A stretch of 64,000 bases of DNA from a virus (taxonomy: Duplodnaviria > Heunggongvirae > Uroviricota > Caudoviricetes): the IMG/VR virus record IMGVR_UViG_3300001598_000039, positions 1-64,000 of that record; one strand, 5' to 3'. Positions 24,578 to 54,593 of this stretch are shown piece by piece. Under the pieces are notes generated by a model that was given only the letters and a program-made list of their open reading frames with translations, made no database searches and had not been told where the DNA came from. Within the stretch, counting starts at the first letter, position 1; every line of letters starts with the position of its first letter. A program made the position numbers and the translations under genes.

Positions 24578-24696
24578 AAAGCGGGTTGTCCTTTGATTGG
24601 TGTACGGTGCTATTGTACTACATGCAAGGCTAAATGTTAACCCGGCATGGCGCACTCGCGCCAGAGGCCGGGAGAACAACTACAAATCAGAGCCGC

Positions 24697-25845: not shown

Positions 25846-25886
25846 AGTGTTCCTTGTTTGTAGTTGTTCTGTAGCTTGATGGAGAC

Positions 25887-25915
25887 ATTATACAACGTGC
25901 CGCGGTTCTTGTAAA
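25887..25915 (-). promoter_or_regulatory. Sigma70-like promoter TTTACA-N17-TATAAT for the MoxR gene, preceded by a terminator hairpin at 25919-25945
   Basis: Seen directly. Confidence 0.65.
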
Positions 25916-25972
25916 CTTAAAAGGCGCCGTCCTTCCGGAGGCGCCTCAATTGAGCTCAGCTCTAGCTTGTCC

Positions 25973-26236
25973 TTAGCGCGGTGGCAGCCAGATCTGGCAG
26001 CAGTTGACCTCATAGCCAAACTTCCTGGTCAAGAAGTTGTACACAAACGTCTCGACGACGTCATAGTAGTCAGCTTTGCCTTCCTGCGACCAGATTGCCT
26101 CCGGCAGGTCCAGCGTGAACTGTCGTGGAAGCTGGTCCGCGTACTCATGACGCCCACGGTAGGACCGGACCGGCGTCCCGTCGAAGGCGATGTTGGTGAT
26201 CAAGGCCTGATAGCCCTGTTCAGTGTCTGTCATCAT
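25973..26236 (-). CDS. Hypothetical protein (87 aa)
   Basis: AGGAGAGAGCA RBS; TGTACAATAT -10. Confidence 0.6.
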   Translation of the reverse strand: MMTDTEQGYQALITNIAFDGTPVRSYRGRHEYADQLPRQFTLDLPEAIWSQEGKADYYDVVETFVYNFLTRKFGYEVNCCQIWLPPR

Positions 26237-26304
26237 TGCTCTCTCCTGATGGAAAGTTGGCGATATGCCACGGACGCCCGCGGCTAGTTGATATTGTACA
26301 TGCC

Positions 26305-26898
26305 TCAGCCGATGTTCTTGACCCGGAACTTCTTGAAGAAGTCATTAGTCCGCAGGAACTTGAGCAAGTACTCGATCAGCTCTTGCTCAGAGACGATCTT
26401 GTAGTTCCATAAGTCAACGCCGACGTTCAGGTTCAAGACACGGTGCTCTTCGTCAATGGTTATGACCTTGCCAGAATGCCTGTGCCCATGGACATGGATG
26501 TCACCAACTTTGAATGTTCCAGCTGCCCTAGAGTCATAGGATGGGTAGTGTGACACCGAGACGTCAGGGAACAGCTTCCCAAGGCTTGTCCGCATGCTCT
26601 TGCACAGGCATGGCGTCTTGTTGTTCAGGTCGTGGTTGCCTTGCAGGTTGACGAATGTTGGCTTGATCTGCTTGATGTACTCTGCTGGGTTGACCTTCAT
26701 GCCTTCGACGCCGCGGTCATCGCCATACTGGCAGAAGTCGCCGACATGGATGATGATGTCTTCTTCCTTGGCGCGCTCATTGCAGCTCCTGACCAAGGCG
26801 GCGTTCATCTTCTCCACCGTCTTGAATGGGCGGTGGCTGTACTCGAGGATCTTGGACATACCAAGATGGAAGTCAGCTGTGAAGAAACGTCGTGCCAT
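26305..26898 (-). CDS. Calcineurin-like metallophosphoesterase
   Basis: GDFCQYGD, GNHD and HGH motifs; leaderless TGATACAAT ATGACCT ATG. Confidence 0.75.
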   Translation of the reverse strand: MARRFFTADFHLGMSKILEYSHRPFKTVEKMNAALVRSCNERAKEEDIIIHVGDFCQYGDDRGVEGMKVNPAEYIKQIKPTFVNLQGNHDLNNKTPCLCKSMRTSLGKLFPDVSVSHYPSYDSRAAGTFKVGDIHVHGHRHSGKVITIDEEHRVLNLNVGVDLWNYKIVSEQELIEYLLKFLRTNDFFKKFRVKNIG

Positions 26899-26911
26899 AG
26901 GTCATATTGTA

Positions 26912-28078
26912 TCACGCCTTGGAGCTGCTGTAAAACTCATCTGCCAGCTTCTTGTCTTTCGTTGAATCCACCAAGTTCTCCGGCTTGAGCGTCTTGTTGA
27001 GCTGCTCCAAAAGGCCTTTCTGCTCGGCGGTCAAGTTGGTCAACGGCTCAATTATGACTCTAGCCACTAGGTCGCCAACGCCTGAGGCACTCTTGATGCC
27101 GCCATAAGGTACTACAAGTGGATGCCCAGCGGTTGTGCCTGGGCTCATCTTGGCCTTCTTGTAGCCATACGCCGTAGGCACATCTACATCGCCGCCAAGC
27201 GATGCTAGCAGAGGCGATACATGCAAGACAGTCTGCAAGTCGTTGCCCGTTGTGCGCTTGAAGAGGCCAGACTCGTCTTCTCCTACGATGCAGACGATGT
27301 ACATGTTCCCATCGGCTCCTCCGCAAACTCCACACTCTCCTTTGCCGGCAAGCCTGAGGCGCGTTCCATCGGCTACTCCCTGTGGGATCTTGACTTCGAC
27401 ATCTTTACGGACTTTGAGGCGACGCTCTCCATTGCACTTCTTGCAGACATGCGCGCTGATTCCTGTTCCGCCGCAATGCCGGCATGTTGTGACTTGCTGC
27501 ATGAAGCCAAACGGCGTGCGCTGCTGAGAGACCTCTTGGCCAGACCCTCCACAATGAGGGCACTCTTCAAGCTTAGTCCCTTTCTCAATGCCAGTCCCGC
27601 CACAGCAGTCGCACGGCACAGTCGCACTGACTTCAAACTTCTTGGTGCAGCCATAGAGCATCTCTTTGAAGTTGATCTTCATGTGGAGCTGCATGTTCCG
27701 CCCATCTACTGGAGCATTGACATCTGGCATCTCCCGCTTAGGCTGCTCTCGATGCATTCCAAACGGGTCAAAGCCAAACCCTCTGAACTGCGATGCCTGG
27801 CGCCGCATGAAGTCGCGCAGGTCATCGTCATCCATTCCAAAGCCGTTTCCATGAGGCCCATCAAAGCCGAACTCATCGTACTGCTTCCGCTTCTCCGGGT
27901 CAGACAGCACTTCGTATGCCTCGCTGATGGCAGCAAACTTGTCTTTCGCAGCCGGGTCATCAGGATTGCGGTCAGGATGGTGCTTCATCGCGAGCTTGCG
28001 GTAGGCCTTTTTCAGGTCATCCGCACTCACGTCTTTGCTTACGCCAAGAGTCTTGTAGTAGTCTTCTTTCTGTGCCAT
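26912..28078 (-). CDS. dnaJ: DnaJ/Hsp40 co-chaperone (J domain with HPD, four CxxCxGxG zinc fingers, C-terminal domain)
   Basis: [13 protein letters not shown]...HPDRN; [32 protein letters not shown]. Confidence 0.85.
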
Positions 28079-28191
28079 GGCTTGCTTGCCCATTCAGTCT
28101 CAGTATGCCTATTCTACACCACCTGCCACCAAATGTTAAAGGCCGCCACCCGTAGGCAGTGGCCATCACCAACCACAAATTGGTCATTTCC

Positions 28192-29430
28192 TCACTTGGC
28201 AGCCGGCTTAGCGACTCCGTTGAGCTTCTCCAGCGTCATCGTGTTGATGAGCATGTTCAGCGGATTGGATGCAGCCTGACCATCGGCTCCACCAAGAGTC
28301 ATCATCGTCGGGAGCTTGAGGCCAGCAATGCCCTTGCCGAGGTTCTCCCACTTGGCCTTGGCAATTCCAAGCTCGAGGTCAAGCTGGGCACGCTGCAACT
28401 CAGTAATGGCGCCGCTCTTCTCAATGGCGATCTTCTTAGCCTCAGCCGTAGCGATCTGCTGTTCCGCTTTCAGCTTGATTGCCTCAAGGTTAGCCGCTTC
28501 AGTCTGCTTCTGGATCTCCGCGACCTCACGGAGCTTCTCCGCTTCGATCTTGGCGACTTCCTTCTGCTTCTGGACTTCAATCGAGGCGACTTCCTTCTCC
28601 TTAGCGGCCTTGATCAGCATCTCCTGCTTCTCAAGCTCCTGGACAGTCACTTTCTTCTGGGCAGCGATCTCCGCGAGCTTCTTCTCCTTTTCAGCAGCCT
28701 GGACAGCATTTGCCATTTCCGCCTCGGCCTTTCCTCGCTGCTCAGCGATCTGCATCTGGTAGTTCGCTTCGACTTTCACCTTCTCAGCTTCGAGCTTCTG
28801 CTGCTCAGCAAGAGCAAGGCGCTTGGCAAGGTCAGCTTCTTTCTGCTTGGCGAACTGCACCTGGGTCTCATTGTCGTACCGCGGCAGTCCAGCACAAGTG
28901 AAGCTCACAACATCGATGCCTTCAGCAAGCAGGTTAGGCTCATGGACGATCGCATCATGGATCTTCTTGGCGAACTCTGGGAACTTCTCCACAGACTCCG
29001 ACGGCGTGTACTGGGAAGCAATGCACTGGGCGACAGTCTGGAGTGATGTCCTCACCTTTGCCCAGATCTTCTCATCATCGCCTTCGACCTGCTGGTGGAG
29101 CCTGATGATCTGCTCGTCATTGGTCGAGTCGATCCGGTAGCCGATCTGGCAGTTGAGCCGCGCAGTCGTCTTGTTGCTGAACTGCATCTCGATGGCGTCG
29201 CGCTCTCCCTCATTGCAGATCTCCACACTGGCTTTCGGGTACTCCCAAATGCGCGGCCAGGGCCTAGCATACCAGCCACCATCGCGACGGACCTCAATGC
29301 CGCCATCGACATTCTGGATGATCTGAAGGTTCTGGACGTCGTTGACATGAAGCATCTTGAAGAACCCAATAAGCGCGAGGATCCCACAAAGGATCACCGT
29401 GATGAACACTCCTGCGAATCTGTTAGTCAT
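28192..29430 (-). CDS. SPFH/band-7 (stomatin/prohibitin-like) membrane protein with a long coiled-coil
   Basis: N-terminal TM helix, SPFH core, KAEAE repeat-rich coiled coil. Confidence 0.7.
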   Translation of the reverse strand: MTNRFAGVFITVILCGILALIGFFKMLHVNDVQNLQIIQNVDGGIEVRRDGGWYARPWPRIWEYPKASVEICNEGERDAIEMQFSNKTTARLNCQIGYRIDSTNDEQIIRLHQQVEGDDEKIWAKVRTSLQTVAQCIASQYTPSESVEKFPEFAKKIHDAIVHEPNLLAEGIDVVSFTCAGLPRYDNETQVQFAKQKEADLAKRLALAEQQKLEAEKVKVEANYQMQIAEQRGKAEAEMANAVQAAEKEKKLAEIAAQKKVTVQELEKQEMLIKAAKEKEVASIEVQKQKEVAKIEAEKLREVAEIQKQTEAANLEAIKLKAEQQIATAEAKKIAIEKSGAITELQRAQLDLELGIAKAKWENLGKGIAGLKLPTMMTLGGADGQAASNPLNMLINTMTLEKLNGVAKPAAK

Positions 29431-29472
29431 AGTCTCTGTTGTCTTTCTGTTTGGTGTGGTTGGTTAGTTTGG

Positions 29473-29622
29473 TCAGTTGCTGCCCTTTTCTGCCTTGCTG
29501 GTGTCCTTGCCGTGGATGCGGAAGAACTCCTTTATGCCAAGGTAGATCACCTGGGCAGCGAAATAGATGAATCCGGCGCTGAATACGGCCAACGCCAAGC
29601 CGATGATGATGCGTGCTAGCAT
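29473..29622 (-). CDS. 49-aa membrane peptide
   Basis: Internal ATG with AAGGA RBS. Confidence 0.4.
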   Translation of the reverse strand: MLARIIIGLALAVFSAGFIYFAAQVIYLGIKEFFRIHGKDTSKAEKGSN

Positions 29623-29623
29623 G

Positions 29624-29794
29624 TCAGTCCTTGTGGTTTGTGGTGTAGATAGGCTTCGGAGTTGGAGTGACATCTTGGTAGCCCATCCTGTTGAAGAGCT
29701 TGTTGAGCTCCTTCAAGTCCTTCGCATAGATGAAGTCGCCATTTGGCATCTCGCAGCAGCAATGGGTCTTCTCCTCTGTCACTATAACTCTCAT
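29624..29794 (-). CDS. 56-aa peptide with a CCC motif, leaderless
   Basis: TATACAAT ... ATG; not in track. Confidence 0.3.
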   Translation of the reverse strand: MRVIVTEEKTHCCCEMPNGDFIYAKDLKELNKLFNRMGYQDVTPTPKPIYTTNHKD

Positions 29795-29826
29795 TGGTTC
29801 CATTGTATACCTCTTTAGAGCAGATG

Positions 29827-30270
29827 TTAAGCCAGAACTGAGGCCAGGTACTTCGATGCGGCGCTCATGTCCATGGACCCTCGGAATGGCGCCAAGGTCT
29901 TCATGGCTTGGCCCATGTTCTTCTTCACCTTCTCGATGCCGGCATCCTGGAGGGCCTTCTGGATTGCGGCCTCCATCTCTTCCTGCGTCATCTGCTTCGG
30001 AAGGTATGTCTTGAGGACTTCAAGCTCAGCCTTCTCCTTTGAGCTCAAGTCGGTCCGCCCAGCAGCATCAAACTGGCTGATGCTGTCTTGATGGCTCTTC
30101 ACAGCCTTCTGCACCGCCTTGATGCAGGCTTCAGACGTCACCGGCTTGCCAGCATTGATGGTTTGGTTCTTGATGTCGGACATCAGAGCGCGCAAGCAGT
30201 CCCGCTTGACCACGTCTTTGGCAAGCATGGCCGTCTTGATGTCGGATTGGATCTGGTCGTATAGTTCCAT
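29827..30270 (-). CDS. GatB/YqeY-domain protein
   Basis: Overall similarity to the YqeY family; TTAACT-N17-TATAAT promoter and AGGAGAGAACA RBS. Confidence 0.65.
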   Translation of the reverse strand: MELYDQIQSDIKTAMLAKDVVKRDCLRALMSDIKNQTINAGKPVTSEACIKAVQKAVKSHQDSISQFDAAGRTDLSSKEKAELEVLKTYLPKQMTQEEMEAAIQKALQDAGIEKVKKNMGQAMKTLAPFRGSMDMSAASKYLASVLA

Positions 30271-30486
30271 TGTTCTCTCCTATGAGGACATTATAATATG
30301 GAAGCAAGTAGAAGTTAAGCCGCCTAGCTGACAGGCGGCTCCTCGATGCCATCATTCTTTAGCCTCTGTCTGGTTGCTCAGCAAAGAGGGTGGCGCGCTA
30401 GTCCTTCCTGCTGCCGCACGCCGTAGCAGCACATGTTTCGTCATGGATGGTTAGTTTGGTTTGCAGTTTGGCATCTCAAATCTAGG

Positions 30487-32013
30487 TCAGGCCGCGAGGA
30501 CCTCAGAGACCTTTGCGTAGCGCGGCGTGTCAAGCATCTCCTTGAGCACCTGCCAGGGGTCAGTGCTGTTCGACATGACCATCTTGAGGACGTTCTGCGA
30601 GTAGCCGCTGACAAGGGCGACTCCAGCTTCGTTCTGCGTCAGAGGGATCGTGCCGGTCCGCGAAGCGACATTCCAATAGATCAGGCGAGGAAAAGCATAG
30701 CCAGCGGCCTTGAACTTACGGCCAATCTCCTTGAAGAGCGCGGTCTCATTTGCGCTGTAGCGGCCAGCTCCATAGCTGTAGGTGCCCTGATTGAACTCCA
30801 TATCGGAGACGATGAGCACATCAGGGATGTCTTCTTGCTTGAGCTGGTTGTCAACAGCAGTCTTCAAGATGAGGTCAAACACCGCGGCGATGTTGGTACT
30901 GCCGCCCCAATCCATGCGCTCGACCGTGTTGAGCTTCTGTGCAAGCGTCTTGCAGTTCTTGAGGCTGACAAGAGCAGGGCTGTCACTGAAAGTCATGACC
31001 TTGTCCGCGAACGGGCCAGTCAGGTGCTCAGACGTATAGATGCCAAGCGCGATCGAGACATCAATTGCACGCATCCTCGACTTGTTGTCGACCTGTGTCC
31101 ACATCGATCCAGACACATCAGCAACCGTAAGGAGGTTGCGCTCGAGGTTGACAGCTGGAAGCGCCTTCCAGAGAGCTTCGAGCGTCGCATCAGGGCGAGA
31201 CATTCCAGGAGTGCTGTACTTGTAGACGATGTCCGTAGGGAAGTTCGCTGCAGAGTTGATCTTGGCTTCGCCGGACTCGACCTTGTCAAGGAACTTCTGG
31301 CGACCCGCAGGGTCATGCTTCAGGAACGCATCCTTGTAGCGGATGTTGGCCTTTGAAGGGACGCTCTGGTAGTTGATGTCAGTCCACTTGTTGGCAGACA
31401 TCTTCTTCTCCACGACGTCGATCTTCGCGCGGAGCGAAGAGAGCGCCTTGCGGTAGTTCTTAGGCTGCATGCCGAACGCCTTGCAGAGCCTGTTTGCAAG
31501 CGCCCTAGTGGTATCGGACGAGGTGTTGATCGAAGGCATCCACTTGGCCAGCAGCGAGATGCTAGGCTTGCCATCAGCGAGGTCAGCAATGTCCTGGTGG
31601 AACTGCTTGCTGATGAACTGGATGACGTCATCTTCAAGCGAAGTGTCCATAAGGCAGAAGAGGTCATCATAGCGGCCGTACTCTGCAAGAAGAGGAATGA
31701 GCTTCAGCGCGTCTTCCTTGTCATACTGTGCCAGCCACTTGAACATGATGCGGAACGACCGGCGCTCACCAAGACCACCACGGACGTCACGGAGCATGAA
31801 CATCCAGCGGATAGCGTACTCTTTGTTCTCCGCGAACGCTTCTGCGAACTTGTGCTCGATCTCCTTCTCACCGAGCTTGCGCAGTGACGAGACTGCGAAG
31901 TTGAGGTCAAGCAGCTTCTTGCCTGAAGTTGCGTAGCCTACTGCGCCATTCTCCGTGATAGAGACTTCTGCTGCGAGCGTATTGTCCAGTGCCTTAGCGA
32001 ATGTGTCGTTCAT
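30487..32013 (-). CDS. vWA-domain protein of the TROVE/Ro60-like DUF2828 type
   Basis: MIDAS DVSGSM; N-terminal helical repeats; start moved to MNDTFAKAL with AAGGAA RBS and a 70-nt leader from GGTGTACAATAC. Confidence 0.55.
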   Translation of the reverse strand: MNDTFAKALDNTLAAEVSITENGAVGYATSGKKLLDLNFAVSSLRKLGEKEIEHKFAEAFAENKEYAIRWMFMLRDVRGGLGERRSFRIMFKWLAQYDKEDALKLIPLLAEYGRYDDLFCLMDTSLEDDVIQFISKQFHQDIADLADGKPSISLLAKWMPSINTSSDTTRALANRLCKAFGMQPKNYRKALSSLRAKIDVVEKKMSANKWTDINYQSVPSKANIRYKDAFLKHDPAGRQKFLDKVESGEAKINSAANFPTDIVYKYSTPGMSRPDATLEALWKALPAVNLERNLLTVADVSGSMWTQVDNKSRMRAIDVSIALGIYTSEHLTGPFADKVMTFSDSPALVSLKNCKTLAQKLNTVERMDWGGSTNIAAVFDLILKTAVDNQLKQEDIPDVLIVSDMEFNQGTYSYGAGRYSANETALFKEIGRKFKAAGYAFPRLIYWNVASRTGTIPLTQNEAGVALVSGYSQNVLKMVMSNSTDPWQVLKEMLDTPRYAKVSEVLAA

Positions 32014-32119
32014 ATCTGTTTCCTTTGTGCACGACGCGCTTGTTTTCCAGTGGTAGTGGGATTGTGTTCGTTGCTGGGTGCGTCGTATGGTTGTATTGTA
32101 CACCAGAAGCCAATTGAAG

Positions 32120-32467
32120 TTAAGCCAGCTTTCCAGAATGGAGGAGCTTAAGGGCGGAGTTGACTTTCGATGCGATGCCGTCCGCATTCTTGGCGTTCAG
32201 GTATGTGTAGATGACGTGCTTCCGGATGTCAGCATCAAGAGGTATCATGGCGCCATCAACATAGTTGCGCATGTCTAGGATCTCAAAGTAGAAGTACTGG
32301 CCGCCGCGCTTCTTGTTCACATACTTGCCGTACTCGATGTAGGGTGACATCTTGTCCTTCCCTCTGAAGCTGATGATGCTGACGTCGTCGATGTCGTCGT
32401 TCCCAACATTGGTCGGCTTGTAGTTGAGCTTCTTCAAGAAGTCTAGCTTGTCAATTGGTTCTGCCAT
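32120..32467 (-). CDS. Hypothetical protein (115 aa), leaderless
   Basis: GCGTACAAT ACTATAGTT ATG. Confidence 0.6.
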   Translation of the reverse strand: MAEPIDKLDFLKKLNYKPTNVGNDDIDDVSIISFRGKDKMSPYIEYGKYVNKKRGGQYFYFEILDMRNYVDGAMIPLDADIRKHVIYTYLNAKNADGIASKVNSALKLLHSGKLA

Positions 32468-32494: not shown

Positions 32495-32506
32495 TAGGGT
32501 AAATAG
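32495..32506 (+). promoter_or_regulatory. Class III late-like motif TAGGGTAAATAG (32-nt leader, AAAGGAAG RBS)
   Basis: Consensus match. Confidence 0.5.
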
Positions 32507-32538: not shown

Positions 32539-33144
32539 ATGGCAGTTTCATTCAAAGAGGAGTTCAAAGACGTCCTTGAGCCTGAGCGCAAGATCACTAG
32601 CTTCGGCATCAGCCCACTAAACAACCTTCAAGAGCTCCGCTTCTACGCCGGCGGCCACAAGTTCAGCCAACTCTGCGGCTTCAAGTTCAAGTCGAAGTTT
32701 GACTCGCCTGTCGCTAAAGAAGACCCATACTTCCAAGTCTCCTTCGTATGCAAGCTCCGCTCTAAGATCTGGCGCGAGCAGAACACCAACACCTCTCGCT
32801 GGTATGTATTTGTCCGCACAAGCCCAGTGCAAGTGCGTGTCCTCAGCAAGAAGACGCTGCTTGAAGAGTACGGTTTTGACTTGGACAAGTTCTTCGACTC
32901 AGACCTCTTCAAGAAGTTTGTCCCTCAGTTCCAGAGCGCTGTGAAGAATGGTGTGGAGAAGATCATCCCAGAGTTCATCGACCGAGAGCTTGTCGCTAAG
33001 GGTGGCGAAGAGAAGAACAAGGTAGAGATCGACTTGGCAAAGAACTACCAGCGCGCCATCAGCGATTCGATCCCTTACATCGCCAAGACGTACGTTGAGG
33101 ACAAGAACTACACATTGAACGACCTTGACTTCAAGTGGAAGTGA
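32539..33144 (+). CDS. Hypothetical protein (201 aa)
   Basis: Track ORF; same frame as the next three ORFs. Confidence 0.6.
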   Translation: MAVSFKEEFKDVLEPERKITSFGISPLNNLQELRFYAGGHKFSQLCGFKFKSKFDSPVAKEDPYFQVSFVCKLRSKIWREQNTNTSRWYVFVRTSPVQVRVLSKKTLLEEYGFDLDKFFDSDLFKKFVPQFQSAVKNGVEKIIPEFIDRELVAKGGEEKNKVEIDLAKNYQRAISDSIPYIAKTYVEDKNYTLNDLDFKWK

Positions 33145-33147
33145 CCG

Positions 33148-34731
33148 ATGAACGAGTCGATCCTAGACAAGCCGCAAGACGGCCTTTGCCCAGAGATATG
33201 GGAAAAACAGCCTGATGGCAGTTGGACAATGCATGATGCCGTCCGCCAGAAGCTCATCGCTTTGGCAGTAAGCGTCCTTGAGTCTGCGCATCTGCCAACA
33301 CACAACATCATCTTGCGCTTGACCGGGTCGCTCACATCGAACTCCTACACACCGGTATCTGATGTTGATGTACACATTAGCGGCTTCAGAGTCAGGGAGT
33401 TCCAAGAGATGACATAGAAGCGCATCAGCGAAGTCCTAGATGCGATGAAAGCCGCTAGCCATGACGATGTCTTCATTGGCCAGCACCCGATTGAGCTCTA
33501 CTACCAAGTGAGCGAGTTCCAAGACTTCATGTCGGTTGGATGCTATGACCTACTTGAAGGACGCTGGGAAGTTGGCCCGGAGATGACCGACAAGGAGTTT
33601 GACCCGTACAGTGAGTACTTCGACGTCGACATGCGCGGAGTCAAGTCCATCATGGCGGACGTCCGCAACACTATCCTCCGGCCGTATGAGAAGCTGGTCG
33701 CCTACAAGAACAGCTCAGACCAAGACTTCAGAGATGAGCTTGCAGTCAAGATCACTGCAGACCTAGAAGAGGCGGTCAAGCTGTTCGAGTAGCTGCGGAA
33801 CTACAGGAAGGTGTACAGCAGCCCTAAGAGCAGAGAAGAAGCGCTGAAGCGCCGGAGCTCGATGAAATGGAAGGTAGCTGACTCAACATTCAAGCTGATG
33901 GACAAGTTCGGCTACCTTGGAATCATGCGGGCCTACAAGCAGGCCCTTAACTCAGGCATCCAGCCGGACCAGTTCCCAAAGTTGGCCGAGTGGTTGCTTG
34001 GAAAGATGAAAGAGACAACTATGAAAGCACTTAACGACAGTGAGTACAGCATAAGCCTTGATGAGTCACAAGTCGACGAAAGCGGCGACACCATCAAAGC
34101 AGCTGTGCTTGCGGCGCTTCTTGCCATCCCTGGCGTATGCGGAGCTGAGCAGATCAAGCCGGCTCTCAACAGCAAGCAGCCTCTAGCAGCAGTTGAGCAA
34201 GTCCGTGCCAAAGCAAGCCCTAAGGCATCCTATAGCGGCTACTCATACTCCCATGCCACCAACATTGTTGCGTTGACCCTCTTTTGGGAAGCCCAGAACC
34301 AAGGCAAAGAAGGAATTGACCGTGTTGCGTCAGTCCTCTTGAACCGCTGCGACGGAGATGAGAAGAAGCTCCCTCTCGCTTGCCTCAAGAACGCGTACAG
34401 CTCAAAGGCAAAGCGCTACGTCTGGCAGTTCAGCTGCTGGGATGAGAAGGGGATCCACAAGATCCAGCGATCGACGCAGCGTCCAGGCAACTACCGCATC
34501 TTCATCCCGCGTGAGGTGAAAGCTGGAAAGCAAGCCTCAATCGACGTCTGGAAGTACTGCAATGAAGTCGCAGTCAAGCTCTGCGACGGCAAGTTCAAGA
34601 CGCTCGGAGACTGGACTGAGTACTACAACCCCGCTAGAGTGACACCAACTTGGGCTGACGAGCTGACTTCGGTCGAGACCTTCGGCAACCACAAGTTTGG
34701 CATCCTCAAGCGCCATGCGGCTTACACCTGA
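33148..34731 (+). CDS. One reading frame interrupted by two TAG codons (33415-33417, 33790-33792). N-terminal minimal nucleotidyltransferase whose catalytic domain spans the first TAG, plus a C-terminal SleB-like cell-wall hydrolase
   Basis: GS...SDVDVHI before the TAG and HDDVFIGQ third-carboxylate strand after it; the downstream segments lack ATG and RBS; Hydrolase_2 signature TLFWEAQNQGKEGIDRVASVLLNR...QFSCW. Confidence 0.55.
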
Positions 34732-34889
34732 TGCACAAAGAAGAAGTAGACCGCCTGCTTGACCAACTGGAGTACGCCGTCAAGAGCGACTCCTATGTCC
34801 TGTCCTACAGTGACATTGACTCTATCATCAACAGGCTTGACCGCCTTAGAGAGCACATCAACGCAACCTATGGAGCAAGAGGAAGATGA
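34731..34889 (+). CDS. 52-aa coiled-coil peptide
   Basis: TGATG and ATGA overlaps on both sides. Confidence 0.4.
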   Translation: MHKEEVDRLLDQLEYAVKSDSYVLSYSDIDSIINRLDRLREHINATYGARGR

Positions 34890-35173
34890 GCGACCAGCTT
34901 TCAGCAGATCCGGCTCTAGATGAGCCATTGACACTCATGGACTTGCTCAAGACGCCTGATCCAATGCTCTCGGTCCTCTACCCGGATACGCCTCCATCCT
35001 ACTTTGCAGACAAGGGAGACGTCTTCACTAAGCCAAAGAACCCAATTGAGCGCTACCAAGACGCTCCGATCAAGCCTTACATCAAGACCCGTGACTTCAA
35101 CAACAGCGAGGACGAGCCATACCTCAACAAGCCAAAGCCTGGCATTGAGATCGGCATTAAGGTCTCGTTCTGA
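34886..35173 (+). CDS. Hypothetical Pro-rich protein (95 aa)
   Basis: GAGGAAG RBS. Confidence 0.55.
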   Translation: MSDQLSADPALDEPLTLMDLLKTPDPMLSVLYPDTPPSYFADKGDVFTKPKNPIERYQDAPIKPYIKTRDFNNSEDEPYLNKPKPGIEIGIKVSF

Positions 35174-37249: not shown

Positions 37250-38032
37250 TCAGCTTGCGACTGAGAAGGCGAACTCCTTCTTCAGCTTAGGCAGCATGTC
37301 ACTAAGCACAAACTTTGTCCGCGAGTCTCGAGATGGGACTTTGAACTTCGATCCAGAGACATTGGCGTCATGCCTGTAGTAGATGAAGGCGCCAGGCCAG
37401 TTGAACTGTTTGAACTTGATGGCACATCCATAAGCGGCATTCACTTTCTTCAGGTGGTCAGCGACTTTGACGTGCGACATGGAGTATGGGTTGATGAAAC
37501 TAGTGTAAGGCAAGAAGCTGCTGTCTGCAATGAGTGACTGGAACAGTGCGATGTGGCCAACTGATCCGTAACTGTTCATGTAGTCATAGAGCTCTTTTGT
37601 CTTGGCGACGTAGACAAAGCCTGTAGTGTACCCGCATGCACCAAAGCCTTTCACTTCAGCAGCTTCAGCTTGCGCTTCAGCCGCAGCGCCACTCCAGATG
37701 AAGTCATCATCGTCGATGCGGGTTGCGATCATCTTTGACCCTGGCTGCCATCTTGCCTTCAGCTCTTGCTCAAGGCAGCTGTACCTGATGACGGATGCCT
37801 TGAATGGCATTGGAGCAAGAGCCTTCTGCAGAGCTTGGACTCGGTCTAGCGCCAGCCAATCATGAACCGCAAGAAGCAGCTCAAAGCTCTTGTTGGTCTG
37901 GTTGGCTAACGATGGAAGCAAGTTTGACTTAAGCAGCTGCAGGCGCTGCTTGTACATCTGGTCTGAGAGCAATGTGCCGACGTCGAATCCAAATGGCGTG
38001 CACAGGAACCTAGTTATGATGATGTGCTTCAT
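37250..38032 (-). CDS. Putative glycosyltransferase-like protein (260 aa)
   Basis: Gene context only; ATGA coupling to the GT2 gene. Confidence 0.4.
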   Translation of the reverse strand: MKHIIITRFLCTPFGFDVGTLLSDQMYKQRLQLLKSNLLPSLANQTNKSFELLLAVHDWLALDRVQALQKALAPMPFKASVIRYSCLEQELKARWQPGSKMIATRIDDDDFIWSGAAAEAQAEAAEVKGFGACGYTTGFVYVAKTKELYDYMNSYGSVGHIALFQSLIADSSFLPYTSFINPYSMSHVKVADHLKKVNAAYGCAIKFKQFNWPGAFIYYRHDANVSGSKFKVPSRDSRTKFVLSDMLPKLKKEFAFSVAS

Positions 38033-39546
38033 AGGTAGAAGTTGTTCTGCTTCAGGAGCTCAACCTTAGACTCGATGATCGCCAGCCTCTGCGCTTCAAC
38101 ACATGGCGTCTCATAGGACTCATGCATCAAGTCAGCGATGAGGTAGTAGACTGCTGCTTGGCGTGCTGTGTCGATCGCTGCATGTTGGCAGCTGTTCGGG
38201 TTGTCTCCAATGGTGTAGACGAAGAGCGGCTCATCCATGACAGCAAGCGACTTGCACTTGTCGTATGTCCTGAGGCTCCAGATGACGTCGTTGAACCTGA
38301 TGCGGTCTGGGATGAACTGCGGGCAAAGCTCCGTCTTAACACAACTAGTCGCCGGTTGGCATAGACGGACAACATCCTTGAGCGCATGCCCGTCAAATTT
38401 GGCAAGGCGCCGCACTCCATCACGGACATCATATCGGGCGCACTTCACCAAGTCAGGCGAACCGGATGCGATGATGAGCTTATGCAGATGCTCTAGAGCA
38501 GTGTCCGAGACATAGTAGTCGTCGCTGTCCAAGAACAACGTGTAGGCCGCTCCAGGAACATGCCTAAGTGCAACATTGCGTGCGCCTCCTCCATAGGCTT
38601 TCTTGTCTAGGAGCTCGTACTCGACTTTAGTTGGCCAGTTGGCTGCAATCTTCTTCAGCAACTCCGCCGTGCCATCAGTAGAAGCGTCGTCGACTAGCAC
38701 AACTTTGAAGTGCTTGAACGTCTGGCTCATGATGCTGTCTATGCACCGTTCCAGAAAGGCTTCGCTGTTGAAGGTCGGTATGATGATCCTGAAGAATGGA
38801 GAGTCATCACCAACCGCATACGGGACATTCAGCTTCCAGCCAACATAGGACTCAAGGTATCTGGCGCGCGACTGCATGCTCCTGTTGTCTGTGCAGAGGC
38901 CTCCATTTCTGCTGAACCTCAGGTTCTCCAGCAGCTTGACCCCGTCATTGGCGACTCTGACTAGCGGGACATTGTTCTCTTGCGCCCAAACAGCGGTTAT
39001 CTCGTCATCCCCAAAGTTCTTTGGCCTAGCAAGATACAATGACTTCCTCAAGCCAATCTCCTTAGGGCAGCACATCGCGACTCCCATGCCAACACGATGA
39101 CAAGGAAGGTCAGTGTCGTAGTCTAGCTGGAACAAGTGGACGGTTCGGTTCAAGAAGCTGATCCTGCCATTGGTGATGCCGTTGTAGACATGGCCATGGT
39201 ATGAGCAGATCGCCTTCCTCCCGTACTTGTCGACTTTGGCCTTCAAGCTTGCAATGTAGTTCGGCGGGTAGTCAATGTCGTCGTCCACAGTCGCGTAGTA
39301 GCCATCAAAGTCGCCGGCCCAGTACATCTTGTTGTTGCATCCAAGGTCTCTGATGCCAGTCTTTGCGTTCGCCAGGACAGTGATGATCTTCTTTGACTTA
39401 GGGAGCTCAGGAGGCACTTCGTCATAGCCATTCAGGCAGATGCAGAGCCTGTCGCACTGAGGCAAGAGCTCAGCTACAGCGTTCAGCAGTCCTTGCTTGC
39501 GCTGAGGTTGAGATGCGATCGCGACTGTGACTTCATTAGTGGCCAT
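38029..39546 (-). CDS. Two-domain glycosyltransferase (C-terminal GT2 domain)
   Basis: IIIPTFNSEAFLERCIDSIMSQTF...VVLVDDASTDGT. Confidence 0.75.
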   Translation of the reverse strand: MATNEVTVAIASQPQRKQGLLNAVAELLPQCDRLCICLNGYDEVPPELPKSKKIITVLANAKTGIRDLGCNNKMYWAGDFDGYYATVDDDIDYPPNYIASLKAKVDKYGRKAICSYHGHVYNGITNGRISFLNRTVHLFQLDYDTDLPCHRVGMGVAMCCPKEIGLRKSLYLARPKNFGDDEITAVWAQENNVPLVRVANDGVKLLENLRFSRNGGLCTDNRSMQSRARYLESYVGWKLNVPYAVGDDSPFFRIIIPTFNSEAFLERCIDSIMSQTFKHFKVVLVDDASTDGTAELLKKIAANWPTKVEYELLDKKAYGGGARNVALRHVPGAAYTLFLDSDDYYVSDTALEHLHKLIIASGSPDLVKCARYDVRDGVRRLAKFDGHALKDVVRLCQPATSCVKTELCPQFIPDRIRFNDVIWSLRTYDKCKSLAVMDEPLFVYTIGDNPNSCQHAAIDTARQAAVYYLIADLMHESYETPCVEAQRLAIIESKVELLKQNNFYL

Positions 39547-40207
39547 GGCAAGATATCCTGAAGAACTGGTTGTTGATGCTGAACTCCGATGTCAAGTAGC
39601 CAGGAGCAAAATGGCGCTTCCAGCAGGCATAGTTGAAGCTGAGCTGGTCACGATGGCTTCCTTTGATGAGCTCTGTTGCCCAAAGGTTGTCTAGCAGGAC
39701 GCAGTCCGAGTCATTGTGCCGCCGAAGCATGATGTTCGACTCAACCATCCCGAGGTCTTTTGGGTACCCTTCGGCTTGGTATCGTGCCATTTGGGATGAG
39801 ACTTCTTCCGCACTAGCCTTGCCAAGGTCAATGCATGCCTGCGCTTCGGCATAGATACAATGCCTGCTAGGATGGATCCTAGTGTAGAATGGTGTCCGCT
39901 CAAGGTTGTACTGCTTGATGAACTTTGAAAGATCACCAATGATAGATATATTCCCGTCTACCCAGATCGAAGTATCATACTCTCTTAGGTACCGGTGCGG
40001 ACAGATCTTCACAACACGCTGCTGCTTGACCAGCGAGAGGTACCGCAAGTCTTCTGGAATCTGGCGGAACTGCCAAACCGGCGCACATGCTGGTCTGTCG
40101 CTGAAGCAGATGAAGTCAATGCCTTCACACTCAGCTGGGACATGGAGCTTGTCATAGCCGCCAGTGATGCACGTGTAGCAGACGATGTTGTTCATGCCTT
40201 GTTCCAA
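39536..40207 (-). CDS. DUF616/TOD1-like putative glycosyltransferase; paralog of the gene at 59867
   Basis: NIVCYTCITGGYD signature. Confidence 0.5.
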   Translation of the reverse strand: MEQGMNNIVCYTCITGGYDKLHVPAECEGIDFICFSDRPACAPVWQFRQIPEDLRYLSLVKQQRVVKICPHRYLREYDTSIWVDGNISIIGDLSKFIKQYNLERTPFYTRIHPSRHCIYAEAQACIDLGKASAEEVSSQMARYQAEGYPKDLGMVESNIMLRRHNDSDCVLLDNLWATELIKGSHRDQLSFNYACWKRHFAPGYLTSEFSINNQFFRISCHGH

Positions 40208-41184
40208 ATCTGTTCACCGTACTGATCAAGGAACTTGAACAGGTCACACTTCCAGTTGTCCATATCACCATCGCCTTTGCGCAGCGACTCGGTGTTCTTG
40301 TCATAGCAGCTCAAAGCGGAGTTCAGCGGATAGTGTATTGGCTTGAACTCAGTCTTGATTGGGACAATTGTTGCATCGACAGGCACCACTCTGGTCATCT
40401 TTCCAGTGTACCAGTTGAGGATCATGTCAGCAAACTCAAACCGGCTTGCCATGTTAGGAATGCCTGTACAGCCACCACATATGTTCACAATGCCTCGCTT
40501 GCGCTGGTAGATTGCACGGAGAAGCATTGTGCAGAAGCGCTCGGTCGATGTTGGTATGGACATCTGGTCATCAGGAACAGCAAGCAGAGGGTTCTTTGTC
40601 CCAGGAACAAGCTCTCCAAGCGCTTTCTTCATGTTCCGGACGAACTTGTGGACAAAGGACTTAGACTTATGCTGGCCATAGAGCCACGACGTACGGGCAA
40701 TGCACCATCTTCCAGACGGCATCGCCAACCTTACGTTCTGCTCTCCTAAGAGCTTATGGAGGCCATACTGGTTCGTTGGGAACTCATCTCTGCGGAGCGT
40801 GTTGTCCTCGTGTTCGCTGAACTCAGAGAAGACATAGTCCGTCGAGACGTGGATGAGATGCGTCTTCTTGAACTCACAGGCTTCAGCAATGTACTTAGGC
40901 ACCAGCGCGTTCATGATGTAGGACTGGTGTTCACCATCTCCTTCCGCGGCAGTCGTGTCAGTGAACGCTGCACAGTTGATGCAGAAGTCATAGTGGATTG
41001 ACTTCATGAAGTACGCAGACAGAGCGTAAGGGACATCCAAAGAGATGTCCTTATGCGTCAGCCCGGTGACGACTCCAATCTTAGACTTTGGCGTAGCTGC
41101 CATCTTTGACAGCATCTCATGGACATCGTGCCCGAGCATCCCATCAGCACCAAGCACCAGTATGTCTAGCTTCTTGTTGAACAT
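40192..41184 (-). CDS. RmlD-like NAD(P)-dependent sugar reductase (dTDP-4-dehydrorhamnose reductase family)
   Basis: ILVLGADGMLG, VSTDYVF, YxxxK, RTSWLYG. Confidence 0.7.
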   Translation of the reverse strand: MFNKKLDILVLGADGMLGHDVHEMLSKMAATPKSKIGVVTGLTHKDISLDVPYALSAYFMKSIHYDFCINCAAFTDTTAAEGDGEHQSYIMNALVPKYIAEACEFKKTHLIHVSTDYVFSEFSEHEDNTLRRDEFPTNQYGLHKLLGEQNVRLAMPSGRWCIARTSWLYGQHKSKSFVHKFVRNMKKALGELVPGTKNPLLAVPDDQMSIPTSTERFCTMLLRAIYQRKRGIVNICGGCTGIPNMASRFEFADMILNWYTGKMTRVVPVDATIVPIKTEFKPIHYPLNSALSCYDKNTESLRKGDGDMDNWKCDLFKFLDQYGEQIWNKA

Positions 41185-41185
41185 G

Positions 41186-41521
41186 TCAGAACCTTATCAA
41201 CACATCTTGCGGCTTCAAGTCTCGCATCGAGCTTGCAAGCCATTCCTCAAGCTTCTCTTTCGACCCAAACCGACGTATGTCATTCTTCCGCGTCTCGCGT
41301 CGTTCCGCTGCAACCGTTCGGACAAGCCATCCAAGAGCATGCGGACTTTGTGCTTGCCATTCGCCAACGTTCGTCTCAAAGTAGCAGACAAGCGCATTTG
41401 GGTCGCACGTCTTCAGGTAGTCAATGAGCTTCTGCACAGTCAGCATGTTCTTGACACACCAAGCACGTTCTTCAGCCTTAGTCCTGAATGGCCAGCCGCG
41501 AGGCTTCTTGGCATCGCTCAT
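41186..41521 (-). CDS. Hypothetical protein (111 aa)
   Basis: Track ORF within the operon. Confidence 0.5.
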   Translation of the reverse strand: MSDAKKPRGWPFRTKAEERAWCVKNMLTVQKLIDYLKTCDPNALVCYFETNVGEWQAQSPHALGWLVRTVAAERRETRKNDIRRFGSKEKLEEWLASSMRDLKPQDVLIRF

Positions 41522-42249
41522 CGGTACCAGACCTTTCCTGTATCCTTGTAGGACTCTAACTGCTCTTCCATCCAGGTGTCATAGTCTGCACCATGCTCAT
41601 CCTTCTCTGACAGTAGGACGGTATCTTGGCCTTTAAGGAATGGCTCTAGCATCTTCGCCATGCCGCCGCCAGCAGCATAGTCGGCCTTAGCGGCTTCAAC
41701 AAACCGAGGCAAGACCGTCTTGATGCCAACACACACTTCGCTGTCTTTGTTGTATGCAGCACCACCAATGTAGTACTGGAAGATGTTCTTAGTCAAAGGC
41801 GTACCATCAACATATTCCGCCGGCGAGTAGAAGCCGTGCAAGAAGCCGCGAGGGATGAAGACTTTGTTTGCGACCTCGCCACTCAAAGCGAACAACTTCG
41901 CTGAACCGAACGTCTTTGAGTCTGGGCGTGCGTCGATGATGAAGTCATAAATCAGTCCAGAGACGCATTCGACGAACTTCGACTGGCAGTAGATGCCTTT
42001 CTGGGCATGCAAGCCACGGCAGACATTTGGGATGGACGTAGACCGATTGATCTGCCTAAGCCAATGGAGGTCAGCAAACCAGATCGGGATGTTGTCAACC
42101 GGCCATTGCCCAAAAGACTTCATGACCTCGGTGAACGAGCCTCTGCTGTCCGCATTTACCTTGGGCATGATAGAAAACACTTGCGACATCTCGTCGCCCT
42201 CAACAGCAGCGAACTCCGTGCAGTAGTGGATGAACTCAGAACTAGCCAT
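41518..42249 (-). CDS. RmlC-like cupin (dTDP-4-dehydrorhamnose 3,5-epimerase family)
   Basis: HAQKGIYCQSKFVECVSGLIYDFIIDARPDSKTFG...IPRGFLHGF; leaderless promoter GATGTACAAT inside the end of the NAD kinase gene. Confidence 0.65.
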   Translation of the reverse strand: MASSEFIHYCTEFAAVEGDEMSQVFSIMPKVNADSRGSFTEVMKSFGQWPVDNIPIWFADLHWLRQINRSTSIPNVCRGLHAQKGIYCQSKFVECVSGLIYDFIIDARPDSKTFGSAKLFALSGEVANKVFIPRGFLHGFYSPAEYVDGTPLTKNIFQYYIGGAAYNKDSEVCVGIKTVLPRFVEAAKADYAAGGGMAKMLEPFLKGQDTVLLSEKDEHGADYDTWMEEQLESYKDTGKVWYR

Positions 42250-42263
42250 GGCCATATTGTACA

Positions 42264-46837: not shown

Positions 46838-46864
46838 AGCAACATTATACCCGTGGGCGATAGG

Positions 46865-46876
46865 CGAAGTAAATAA
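46865..46876 (+). promoter_or_regulatory. Class III late-like motif GCGAAGTAAATAA ahead of the fibre genes
   Basis: Consensus match; GAAGGG RBS before ATG 46907. Confidence 0.5.
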
Positions 46877-46906
46877 AAACACGCCACGAACGAAGGGCCT
46901 AACGAA

Positions 46907-51278: not shown

Positions 51279-51316
51279 CCAGGGCAAACGACAGAATCTA
51301 AAAGGTAAGTAAGAAC

Positions 51317-54580: not shown

Positions 54581-54593
54581 GGAACACTAAACT

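What the first reader, a model, noticed from the sequence alone, without database searches (positions are those of the whole stretch)
33148..34731. In-frame TAG codons split a nucleotidyltransferase catalytic domain and join it to a SleB-like cell-wall hydrolase
ORFs 33148..33417, 33445..33792 and 33811..34731 share one frame and are separated only by TAG at 33415-33417 and 33790-33792. The GS...SDVD part of the minimal nucleotidyltransferase motif lies before the first TAG, and the predicted third-carboxylate strand (HDDVFIGQ) lies after it. The downstream segments have no ATG or RBS; the first candidates are GTG or TTG with no spacer. This pattern fits amber suppression or recoding in late genes, for example by a phage or host suppressor tRNA expressed late, and not three independent genes. 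Early genes such as 7232..7426 and 8791..9000 still end in TAG, which fits late-specific readthrough.
Basis: partly seen in the sequence, partly recalled or inferred. Interest (0 to 1): 0.85.

Follow-up and report, generated by a model that had tools for sequence, protein, structure and literature searches.

The report
Phage late genes read through TAG
An uncultivated T4-like phage carries a few TAG "stop" codons inside its tail-fibre and cell-wall-hydrolase genes that are almost certainly translated as glutamine; this trick is already known from gut phages but is seen here at a very early, sparse stage.

Summary
33148..34731 (+) is one 527-codon frame interrupted only by TAG at 33415-17 and 33790-92. 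More than 20 metagenomic homologues encode the whole thing as a single 500-620 aa protein, aligned without a break across both TAGs. The product has an N-terminal nucleotidyltransferase-fold domain, a helical domain, a hydrophobic helix and a C-terminal SleB-like hydrolase.

A sister strain (about 96% DNA identity) keeps TAG1 but has CAG (Gln) at TAG2. All three segments show pN/pS of 0.03-0.07. A third in-frame TAG (50040-42) splits a 1456-codon tail-fibre gene. The sister strain and a 53%-identical homologue both have Gln there. The 62 start-less codons after that TAG still evolve mostly synonymously. Conversely, the sister strain has an in-frame TAG where the window has CAA (55329-31).

So TAG is read through, most likely as Gln, in late-type genes. 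Six other genes still end in TAG. No tRNA gene was found in 83.1 kb of this strain, whose genome is incomplete, so the source of suppression is unknown.

This is a sparse new member of the known TAG-to-Gln recoded phages, with mid G+C content. It is not a new mechanism.

The parts
33148..34731 (+). Single gene of 527 codons. It has an N-terminal Pol-beta-like nucleotidyltransferase-fold domain (about residues 10-150; G60, S61, D72, D74, E116), a helical domain (153-297), a hydrophobic helix (314-325, AAVLAALLAIPGV) and a C-terminal SleB/CwlJ-like cell-wall hydrolase (about 360-527; E381, N399, R400).
   Evidence: There are 22 or more full-length single-protein homologues. Pfam PF07486 scores 27 bits, exactly the cut-off. 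Foldseek matches SleB 4fet (prob 1.00, TMt 0.69) and a series of nucleotidyltransferases (LinB, KNTase, ANT, MNT, TUT7).
33415..33417 (+). In-frame TAG no. 1 (codon 90), followed by A. It is shared with the sister strain.
   Evidence: The relative's ORF is also cut here (89 aa plus 428 aa). Homologues have N, T, Q or G in this column.
33790..33792 (+). In-frame TAG no. 2 (codon 215). The sister strain has CAG (Gln) here, and the closest homologue P0001 has Gln.
46908..51278 (+). Tail-fibre-like gene of 1456 codons counted from ATG 46908 (the open frame starts at 46752), interrupted by one in-frame TAG.
   Evidence: The relative's ORF P0088 is 1489 aa without interruption. The C-terminal end motif is conserved in homologues.
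50040..50042 (+). In-frame TAG no. 3, followed by A. The sister strain has CAG (Gln), and the 53%-identical homologue P0064 has Gln.
   Evidence: No start codon of any kind occurs for 62 codons and no ATG for 133 codons after it. Those 133 codons differ from the relative by 17 synonymous and 1 non-synonymous change.
55329..55331 (+). CAA (Gln) codon in the third fibre-like gene (54594..56612). The sister strain has an in-frame TAG at this position.
   Evidence: L024 18521-18523, 'HAEGY*TRAFGG' against 'HAEGYQTSAFGG'.
32498..32505 (+). GGTAAATA motif 34 nt upstream of ATG 32539, the first gene of the + strand block 32539..35173 that contains the hydrolase gene. It is a candidate T4-type late promoter.
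   Evidence: RGTAAATA occurs 8 times against 0.76 expected. Most copies lie within about 40 nt upstream of a co-oriented predicted start; the copy at 1303 is about 190 nt from the nearest one.
46868..46875 (+). AGTAAATA motif 33 nt upstream of ATG 46908, ahead of the fibre gene block 46908..56612. It is a candidate late promoter.
7424..7426 (+). TAG used as a true terminator of early-region gene 7232..7426. The next gene's CTTAAGTTAAC motif starts 7 nt later.
   Evidence: The 77-codon extension has a negative coding score.
8998..9000 (+). TAG used as a true terminator of early-region gene 8791..9000.
   Evidence: TAA follows 5 codons later, and the CTTAAGTTAAC motif is at 9014.

Best explanation
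In this phage lineage, TAG codons inside a few late-type genes are decoded by amber suppression, most probably as glutamine. The hydrolase gene 33148..34731 therefore yields one 527-aa two-domain protein, and the fibre gene 46908..51278 yields one 1456-aa protein.

Shown:
- The frames are continuous.
- The interrupted genes are single proteins in relatives.
- The sequence after each TAG is under purifying selection.
- TAG exchanges with CAG or CAA between strains.

Inferred:
- The inserted residue is Gln.
- Suppression comes from a tRNA with anticodon CUA, either phage-encoded in the unsampled part of the genome or host-encoded, or from near-cognate tRNA-Gln.
- Because standard-code genes still end in TAG while the TAG-containing genes sit behind late-promoter-like motifs, readthrough acts as a gate or dose limiter on late proteins (fibres and wall hydrolase), as proposed for code-15 phages.
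For: 1. Homologues covering 100% of the joined product are single ORFs, and the alignment has no gap at either TAG.
2. Sister strain ERR11637157 (95.4-95.9% identity over window 23452-55704) differs by 963 synonymous and 129 non-synonymous codon changes. The only sense/stop exchanges are TAG to CAG at 33790 and at 50040.
3. The reverse case also exists: TAG in the relative against CAA in the window at 55329.
4. pN/pS is 0.07, 0.03 and 0.03 for the three hydrolase segments, and 0.02 and 0.06 for the fibre before and after its TAG.
5. The 62 codons after TAG 50040 contain no ATG, GTG or TTG, yet show 5 synonymous and 1 non-synonymous differences. The 133 codons before the first ATG show 17 and 1.
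6. All in-frame stops are TAG, never TAA or TGA. Every in-frame TAA or TGA junction in the window is followed by an ATG within 2-35 codons, as expected for ordinary neighbouring genes.
7. The same TAG-cut ORFs appear in both the JGI and the Logan assemblies, and TAG1 appears in a second sample.
8. Catalytic residues of both domains are conserved, and the AlphaFold model is confident across TAG1.
9. The phenomenon and its bias towards structural and lysis genes are documented (Borges et al., doi 10.1101/2021.08.26.457843; proteomic proof of TAG = Gln in PMC9523058; strain-level gain and loss of in-frame TAG in doi 10.1101/2023.08.07.552389).
Against: - No tRNA of any kind was found by ARAGORN or Rfam in the window or in the 19.1 kb that extends this strain's genome, 83.1 kb in all. 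None was found in the relative's contigs either.
- No release-factor or Gln-tRNA-synthetase gene is on record.
- Only 3 in-frame TAGs occur in 2 of about 85 genes, far fewer than in described recoded clades.
- Six genes still terminate in TAG, so TAG cannot be a full-time sense codon.
- TAG1 aligns mostly with N or T in homologues, not Q.
- The late timing rests on gene class and a promoter-like motif only.
- There is no peptide evidence.
Confidence: 0.85

Rival explanations
1. Readthrough is real but is not a phage-driven code switch. The phage has no suppressor of its own and depends on a host amber-suppressor tRNA, or on leaky near-cognate decoding by normal tRNA-Gln(CUG). Suppression is then constitutive and partial, and the TAGs are tolerated or act only as dose reducers.
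For: - No tRNA gene was found in 83.1 kb of the strain.
- In-frame TAGs are very sparse, and TAG is still used as a terminator.
- Three of the four in-frame TAGs are followed by A. From my own knowledge, this is the context known to favour suppression in E. coli. None of the six terminator TAGs is followed by A.
Against: - The contig is a partial genome. Its gene content is T4-like and its closest UvsX match is only 29% identical, to 170-220 kb cyanophages. T4-like phages often carry tRNA clusters, so a phage suppressor may lie in the unsampled part.
- Two TAGs in a single gene would cut the yield to the square of the suppression efficiency, which is costly if suppression is only leaky.
Confidence: 0.3
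2. The TAGs are plain nonsense mutations: pseudogenes in a decaying or defective phage population, or hitch-hiking deleterious alleles.
For: CAG to TAG is a single C-to-T transition. The sister strain has intact codons at two of the three sites.
Against: - pN/pS is 0.02-0.07 downstream of every TAG.
- TAG1 is retained in two strains that differ at about 4% of sites.
- There are four independent events in three large late genes, all TAG and none TAA or TGA. All three polymorphic sites pair with Gln codons, one of them CAA, which is two steps from TAG.
- There are no frameshifts.
- A fibre lacking its conserved C-terminus, or a hydrolase cut at residue 89, should be lethal.
Confidence: 0.05
3. 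These are three (and two) genuinely separate genes under the standard code. A split gene has its pieces translated independently, by re-initiation at ATG 33445, at GTG 33811 or ATG 33862, and at TTG 50229, and the pieces perhaps assemble afterwards.
For: An ATG lies 9 codons after TAG1, and a GTG lies 7 codons after TAG2. Public gene callers annotate the pieces separately.
Against: - No homologue is split.
- TAG1 cuts inside the nucleotidyltransferase fold, between the DxD strand and the E116 strand.
- ATG 33445 has essentially no Shine-Dalgarno pairing (-0.6 kcal/mol, against a gene median of -4.5), and GTG 33811 has zero spacer.
- The 62 start-less codons after TAG 50040 are conserved at the protein level.
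- The sister strain fuses the pieces with Gln.
Confidence: 0.05
4. The TAGs are a sequencing or assembly artefact.
For: None specific. This is metagenomic consensus sequence.
Against: - Identical TAG-cut ORFs occur in two assemblies (JGI and Logan), and TAG1 occurs in an independent sample.
- Logan contigs are 100% identical to the window over 16.6 kb.
- Random errors would not be restricted to TAG at Gln positions.
Confidence: 0.01

Closest known systems
TAG-to-Gln ('genetic code 15') recoded phages: crAss-like, Lak, Garnet, Amethyst and others (Ivanova 2014, from memory; Borges et al., doi 10.1101/2021.08.26.457843; Peters et al., PMC9523058)
   Same: In-frame TAG occurs at Gln positions and is concentrated in structural and lysis genes. 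Replication and early genes remain readable in the standard code. Close relatives use the standard code.
   Different: - Here only 2 of about 85 genes (3 codons) are affected, against 26-71% of genes in the described clades.
- G+C is 53%, against the low G+C proposed as the precondition.
- TAG still ends 6 of about 84 genes.
- No suppressor tRNA, release factor or synthetase was found in 83 kb.
- The lineage is a deep-branching T4-like phage from unknown, apparently non-catalogued samples.
Agate phages: a TGA-recoded genome and a standard-code genome sharing more than 90% ANI (Borges et al., section 7)
   Same: The code state differs between nearly identical genomes. [quoted passage not shown]
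   Different: The codon differs (TGA to Trp). Here both strains already carry in-frame TAGs, but at partly different sites.
Phage I57_PsAC1 in the infant gut, which gains in-frame TAG over time as 'synonymous' changes in structural genes (doi 10.1101/2023.08.07.552389)
   Same: Strain-level turnover between TAG and Gln codons occurs in late genes.
   Different: That phage is already heavily recoded and infects Bacteroides. Here only a handful of sites exist.
Laboratory amber mutants grown on supE hosts, such as lambda Sam7 and T4 am mutants (own knowledge)
   Same: CAG-to-TAG changes in late or lysis genes are rescued by a Gln-inserting suppressor.
   Different: Those are artificial conditional-lethal mutants. 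Here the TAGs are natural, occur at different sites in two wild strains and are maintained under purifying selection.
Programmed stop-codon readthrough that makes two isoforms, such as Q-beta A1 (own knowledge)
   Same: A stop inside a structural gene could give both a short and a long product.
   Different: In Q-beta the short product is the functional coat protein. Here the short products (89 aa of a split catalytic fold; a fibre without its conserved C-terminus) are unlikely to be functional.

Membership tests
Stop-codon-recoded (TAG to Gln, code 15) phages | In-frame TAG inside conserved genes whose homologues read straight through | tested here: met
   Hydrolase gene. Fibre gene.
Stop-codon-recoded (TAG to Gln, code 15) phages | Recoded TAG corresponds to Gln in relatives | tested here: met
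   33790 and 50040 pair with CAG in the 96% relative, and the relative's TAG pairs with the window's CAA. P0001 and P0064 have Q. The exception is TAG1, whose column is N, T, Q or G in distant homologues.
Stop-codon-recoded (TAG to Gln, code 15) phages | Sequence downstream of the in-frame stop is under purifying selection, meaning it is translated | tested here: met
   pN/pS is 0.02-0.07. There are 17 synonymous and 1 non-synonymous changes in the 133 ATG-less codons after TAG 50040.
Stop-codon-recoded (TAG to Gln, code 15) phages | Phage-encoded suppressor tRNA (anticodon CUA), often with a release factor or an aminoacyl-tRNA synthetase | tested here: inconclusive
   No tRNA was found in 83.1 kb of this strain or in about 61 kb of the relative. 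About 4.7 kb of the 87.8-kb contig and the rest of a probably larger genome could not be fetched.
Stop-codon-recoded (TAG to Gln, code 15) phages | In-frame stops biased towards structural and lysis (late) genes | tested here: met
   All four sites lie in fibre-like genes or the wall hydrolase. There are none in about 15,000 codons of the other genes. Both operons sit behind the RGTAAATA motif.
Stop-codon-recoded (TAG to Gln, code 15) phages | A substantial fraction of genes recoded, with a clear gain in coding density under code 15 | tested here: not met
   Only 2 of about 85 genes are affected. The gain is limited to joining 5 ORFs into 2. This is a sparse or incipient state.
Stop-codon-recoded (TAG to Gln, code 15) phages | Peptides with Gln at TAG positions | not testable with these tools
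   Needs (meta)proteomics.
Pol-beta-like nucleotidyltransferase fold (N-terminal domain) | hG[GS]...DxD motif plus a third carboxylate on a later strand, and the NTase fold | tested here: inconclusive
   - G60, S61, D72 and D74 are invariant, and E116 is 90% or more conserved.
- Pfam PF01909 and PF22600 reach only E = 0.1, below the cut-off.
- Foldseek hits are consistently nucleotidyltransferases but weak (E 0.04-0.4, prob up to 0.99 for MNT).
- Activity and substrate are unknown.
SleB/CwlJ cell-wall hydrolase (Pfam PF07486 Hydrolase_2) | Domain match and conserved catalytic Glu | tested here: met
   PF07486 scores 27.0 bits, equal to the cut-off. Foldseek matches 4fet and 4f55 (SleB catalytic domain) with prob 1.00 and TMt 0.59-0.69. 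E381, N399 and R400 are invariant.

The most novel reading that the evidence does not exclude
This is a snapshot of the very first steps of an amber-to-glutamine code change, in a mid-G+C (53%) T4-like environmental phage. A handful of Gln codons in fibre and wall-hydrolase genes flip between CAG/CAA and TAG among strains that are 96% identical. TAG still terminates other genes, and the phage itself may carry no suppressor tRNA. If so, recoding can start without prior loss of TAG through low G+C, and possibly by exploiting host or near-cognate suppression.
Probability: 0.3. Interest if true: 0.6.

Novelty: new member of a known kind. Interest (0 to 1): 0.45.

Why it matters
- **Annotation.** Standard-code gene calling chops this phage's fibre and hydrolase genes into fragments. 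Public catalogues already hold the 89-, 115-, 289-, 349- and 1044-aa pieces.
- **Biology.** It extends TAG-to-Gln readthrough to a phage lineage and base composition outside the low-G+C gut clades where it was described. It also offers a pair of near-identical strains in which individual TAG/Gln flips can be followed. That pairing is useful for asking how a code change begins and who supplies the suppressor.
- **What it does not do.** It does not reveal a new mechanism.

Tried and rejected
- **Fetching the source contig failed.** P0002's 87,761-bp JGI contig is not retrievable. The exact 32-mer at the window end is absent from IMG/VR. Both metagenome-contig scans found no close relative. The GTDB genome scan found nothing.
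- **Walking outwards worked instead.** Logan contigs L002, L026 and L025 extended the strain to 83.1 kb. No tRNA was found there.
- **Fetching the relative's version of the TAG-terminated genes at 14-19 kb failed.** Only the same sample came back.
- **Isolate phages gave little.** Megablast of the locus found nothing. tblastn gave only 26-28% matches of the N-terminal domain, to Caulobacter phage Cr30 and 735-kb megaphages.
- **IMG/VR relatives are distant.** They are only 25-35% identical and carry no tRNA-CUA.
- **The T4 late-promoter consensus TATAAATA is absent**. A variant, RGTAAATA, is enriched.
- **Shine-Dalgarno strength discriminates poorly in this genome.** The gene median is -4.5 against -2.5 kcal/mol at random positions, so I gave the 'no RBS' argument little weight.
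- **Pyrrolysine or selenocysteine was considered and dropped.** The sister strain has Gln codons at these sites, and there is no other support.
- **Sample accessions were not found in the paper library**, so habitat and host remain unknown.

Full report
**1. Observation**

The + strand frame starting at ATG 33148 runs for 527 codons to TGA 34729-34731. It is interrupted only by TAG at 33415-33417 (codon 90) and at 33790-33792 (codon 215). This frame has no TAA or TGA, while the other two + frames of the same stretch have 23 and 34 stops. The coordinates and the single shared frame are therefore confirmed.

Two details in the finding are inaccurate:
- The middle segment does contain an ATG, at 33445, nine codons after TAG1. 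The last segment has GTG 33811 and ATG 33862.
- The conserved third acidic residue of the nucleotidyltransferase motif is E116 in HPIELYYQ, not the unconserved 'HDDVFIGQ'. It is still downstream of TAG1, so the catalytic fold is indeed split.

**2. It is one gene**

I searched the joined product, with X at the two TAGs, against 5.8 billion proteins. This returned 47 homologues, and more than 20 of them (500-620 aa) cover 100% of the query as single ORFs. In the 22-sequence alignment there is no gap or loss of similarity at either TAG.

- Invariant or nearly invariant residues lie on both sides of each TAG: G60, S61, D72 and D74 before TAG1; H113, E116, S129, G131, C132, W140 and more between the TAGs; R220, A232, D245 and more, through E381, N399 and R400, after TAG2.
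- Pfam gives Hydrolase_2 (SleB/CwlJ, PF07486) at 27.0 bits, exactly the cut-off, for residues 385-517. It gives only sub-threshold nucleotidyltransferase hits.
- An AlphaFold2 model built on the alignment has mean pLDDT 79, and above 90 for most of residues 10-150, across TAG1.
- Foldseek against the PDB gives the SleB catalytic domain (4fet, 4f55; prob 1.00, TMt 0.59-0.69). It also gives a long, consistent but weak series of Pol-beta-type nucleotidyltransferases: LinB, kanamycin NTase, ANT/AadA, CdnC, MNT antitoxins and TUT7.

The product has an NTase-fold domain plus a helical domain, a hydrophobic helix (314-325) and a SleB-like hydrolase. I did not establish its biological role (endolysin, virion-associated lysin or something else).

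**3. Comparison with a sister strain**

The 90%-identity cluster of the C-terminal fragment contains a 428-aa member, P0048, from Logan contig ERR11637157_8867. Its DNA (L001 plus L024) is 95.4-95.9% identical to window 23452-55704.

- In that strain the gene keeps TAG1 but has CAG (Gln) where the window has TAG2.
- Across the gene the two strains differ at 58 codons: 50 synonymous, 7 non-synonymous, and the TAG/CAG site.
- pN/pS is 0.07, 0.03 and 0.03 for the three segments.

Everything downstream of both TAGs is therefore maintained as protein-coding sequence.

**4. The same thing happens in the tail-fibre genes**

A scan of every stop codon flanked by high-scoring open coding sequence on both sides gave TAA and TGA junctions that are each followed by an ATG within 2-35 codons. 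These are ordinary neighbouring genes. It also gave TAG junctions at 33790 and 50040 that are not.

TAG 50040-50042 splits a 1456-codon fibre-like gene (46908..51278) that has LSxxLSGKID repeats.
- The 53%-identical homologue P0064 reads 'RSKSLQDILDLSVDNLSTQISATSC' against the window's 'RSKTL*SIIDLSVDNLSAQISATSC'.
- The sister strain's ORF, P0088, is 1489 aa without interruption, with Q (CAG) at that codon.
- After this TAG there is no ATG, GTG or TTG for 62 codons and no ATG for 133 codons. Yet those stretches differ from the relative by 5 synonymous and 1 non-synonymous change, and by 17 and 1, respectively. Only readthrough can explain this.

The converse also occurs. The sister strain has an in-frame TAG in the third fibre-like gene ('HAEGY*TRAFGG') where the window has CAA (Gln) at 55329-55331.

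Over 32 kb of aligned coding sequence there are 963 synonymous and 129 non-synonymous codon differences. The only sense/stop exchanges are these TAG/Gln ones. True terminators exchange only TGA with TAA.

In total there are four in-frame TAG sites in three late-type genes of two strains. One is shared, and all three polymorphic sites pair with Gln codons.

**5. TAG is not a full-time sense codon**

My codon-model gene calls give 87 ORFs, ending in TGA 51 times, TAA 27 times and TAG 9 times. Three of the nine TAGs are the in-frame ones. The other six look like real terminators:
- 956..1111 (-)
- 7232..7426 (+)
- 8791..9000 (+)
- 14407..14877 (-)
- 15423..15713 (-)
- 18994..19332 (-)

For these six, the extension beyond the TAG is either only 5-7 codons long or scores as non-coding (three have negative scores). 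The exception is 14407..14877, whose 28-codon extension scores +0.32 because it overlaps the next gene. There is no in-frame TAG in about 15,000 codons of the other genes, against 3 TAG beside 91 CAG/CAA codons in the four late genes.

Three of the four in-frame TAGs are followed by A, and none of the six terminator TAGs is. This is a small sample (Fisher p of about 0.03, my arithmetic). From my own knowledge it fits context effects on amber suppression.

**6. Gene classes**

- The first 11.3 kb holds small genes, each preceded by CTTAAGTTAAC. The motif occurs 26 times against 0.43 expected. Apart from one - strand copy at 11177, it is co-oriented with the genes and switches strand at about 3.55 kb. 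It is very probably a phage-specific early promoter or regulatory element.
- A second motif, RGTAAATA, occurs 8 times against 0.76 expected. Most copies lie within about 40 nt upstream of a co-oriented gene start. It precedes 32539 (the block containing the hydrolase gene) and 46908 (the fibre block).
- RGTAAATA resembles the T4 late promoter TATAAATA (own knowledge), which is itself absent from the window.
- The replication and repair genes are T4-like but very distant: UvsX at 29% identity to cyanomyoviruses, a gp15-like protein, gp46/47-like proteins, DnaB, primase and an NAD-dependent ligase.

The 'late gene' label is therefore plausible but inferred.

**7. Who suppresses?**

No tRNA or any Rfam family was found in:
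- the window;
- the 6.9 kb (L002) and 12.2 kb (L026) that extend the same strain to 83.1 kb;
- the relative's contigs.

No release-factor or synthetase domain is on record for any called gene. The source contig is 87.8 kb, and the gene content suggests a larger genome, so a phage-encoded tRNA-CUA cannot be excluded. This is the main open point.

**8. Relatives without TAG**

The next relatives are 53-57% identical at the protein level (samples ERR3345681 and ERR3345674). They are syntenic and have no in-frame TAG in these genes. The trait therefore appears to be recent and lineage-specific.

**9. Comparison with what is known**

TAG-to-Gln recoding concentrated in structural and lysis genes is established for crAss-like, Lak and other gut phages. 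In those phages the early and replication genes stay in the standard code, and closely related genomes can differ in code.
- It has been validated by proteomics (PMC9523058).
- In-frame TAGs have been seen to come and go as 'synonymous' changes in structural genes.

The present case meets the comparative criteria. It differs in four ways:
- The density is very low: 2 of about 85 genes, against 26-71% of genes in described clades.
- G+C is 53%, against the low G+C proposed as the precondition.
- TAG is still used as a terminator.
- No suppressor has been detected so far.

I therefore file it as a new, sparse and possibly incipient member of a known kind.

**10. Verdict**

The interpretation (amber readthrough of one gene) is supported with about 0.85 confidence. 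Gln as the inserted residue is likely. Late-specific timing and a phage-encoded suppressor are unproven. Interest is moderate, at 0.45.

Noticed in passing
window 276..11237: The motif CTTAAGTTAAC (up to 1 mismatch) occurs 26 times against 0.43 expected. All copies lie in the first 11.3 kb. They are on the - strand up to 3544 and on the + strand from 3577, apart from one - strand copy at 11177, and they mostly precede a small gene. This is probably a phage-specific early promoter or regulatory element of a divergent early region.
   Followed up: partly
window 1303, 2969, 12115, 17599, 18457, 32498, 35956, 46868: RGTAAATA occurs 8 times against 0.76 expected. Most copies lie within about 40 nt upstream of a co-oriented gene start; the copy at 1303 is about 190 nt from the nearest predicted start. 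It resembles the T4 late promoter TATAAATA, which is itself absent from the window. It also precedes the PARP-like gene and a gene with InlB B-repeats.
   Followed up: partly
window 16333..17562 (-): This is a phage-encoded protein with a WGR domain and a poly(ADP-ribose) polymerase catalytic domain (Pfam PF00644, E = 8.5e-19).
   Followed up: no
window 23054..32187 (-): This is a cluster of unusual accessory genes: a DUF2201 metallopeptidase/VWA-like protein with a MoxR-type AAA ATPase, a full DnaJ, a YqeY-like protein and a TROVE/Ro-like RNA-binding protein (phrog_850; Pfam DUF2828).
   Followed up: no
window 37250..43848 (-) and 56669..61466 (-): There are two blocks of sugar-modification genes: dTDP-sugar isomerase, an RmlD-like epimerase, a rhamnosyltransferase and several glycosyltransferases including DUF4422. 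They flank the fibre genes, which suggests glycosylation of virion proteins or of the host surface.
   Followed up: no
window 34087..34125 (residues 314-326 of the hydrolase protein): A conserved, weakly hydrophobic Ala/Leu/Gly-rich helix (AAVLAALLAIPGV) sits between the cytoplasmic-looking NTase/helical part and the SleB-like domain. It could be an internal membrane anchor or an export (SAR-like) segment. Some homologues add LysM domains at the C-terminus.
   Followed up: no
window 33418, 33793, 50043; L024 18524: Three of the four in-frame TAGs are followed by A, and none of the six terminator TAGs is. This may be a context effect favouring suppression over termination. The sample is small.
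   Followed up: partly
window 1: Window position 1 coincides exactly with the end of an independent Logan contig of the same sample (L003). Two related strains (L004, L027) continue for 445 nt beyond it. This may be an assembly break at a strain-variable or repeated point rather than a genome end.
   Followed up: partly
window 46752..46907: The fibre ORF is open from 46752, and public callers start it at TTG 46752 or at an upstream ATG in the relative. However, all homologues begin at MSTYTDLHN, which is ATG 46908, 33 nt after the AGTAAATA motif. ATG 46908 is therefore the likely true start.
   Followed up: partly
L028 2283..2537 (relative ERR3345681): The closest full-length homologue, P0001, is called with an 85-aa N-terminal extension that no other homologue has. 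This is probably an over-extended start call rather than a real domain.
   Followed up: no
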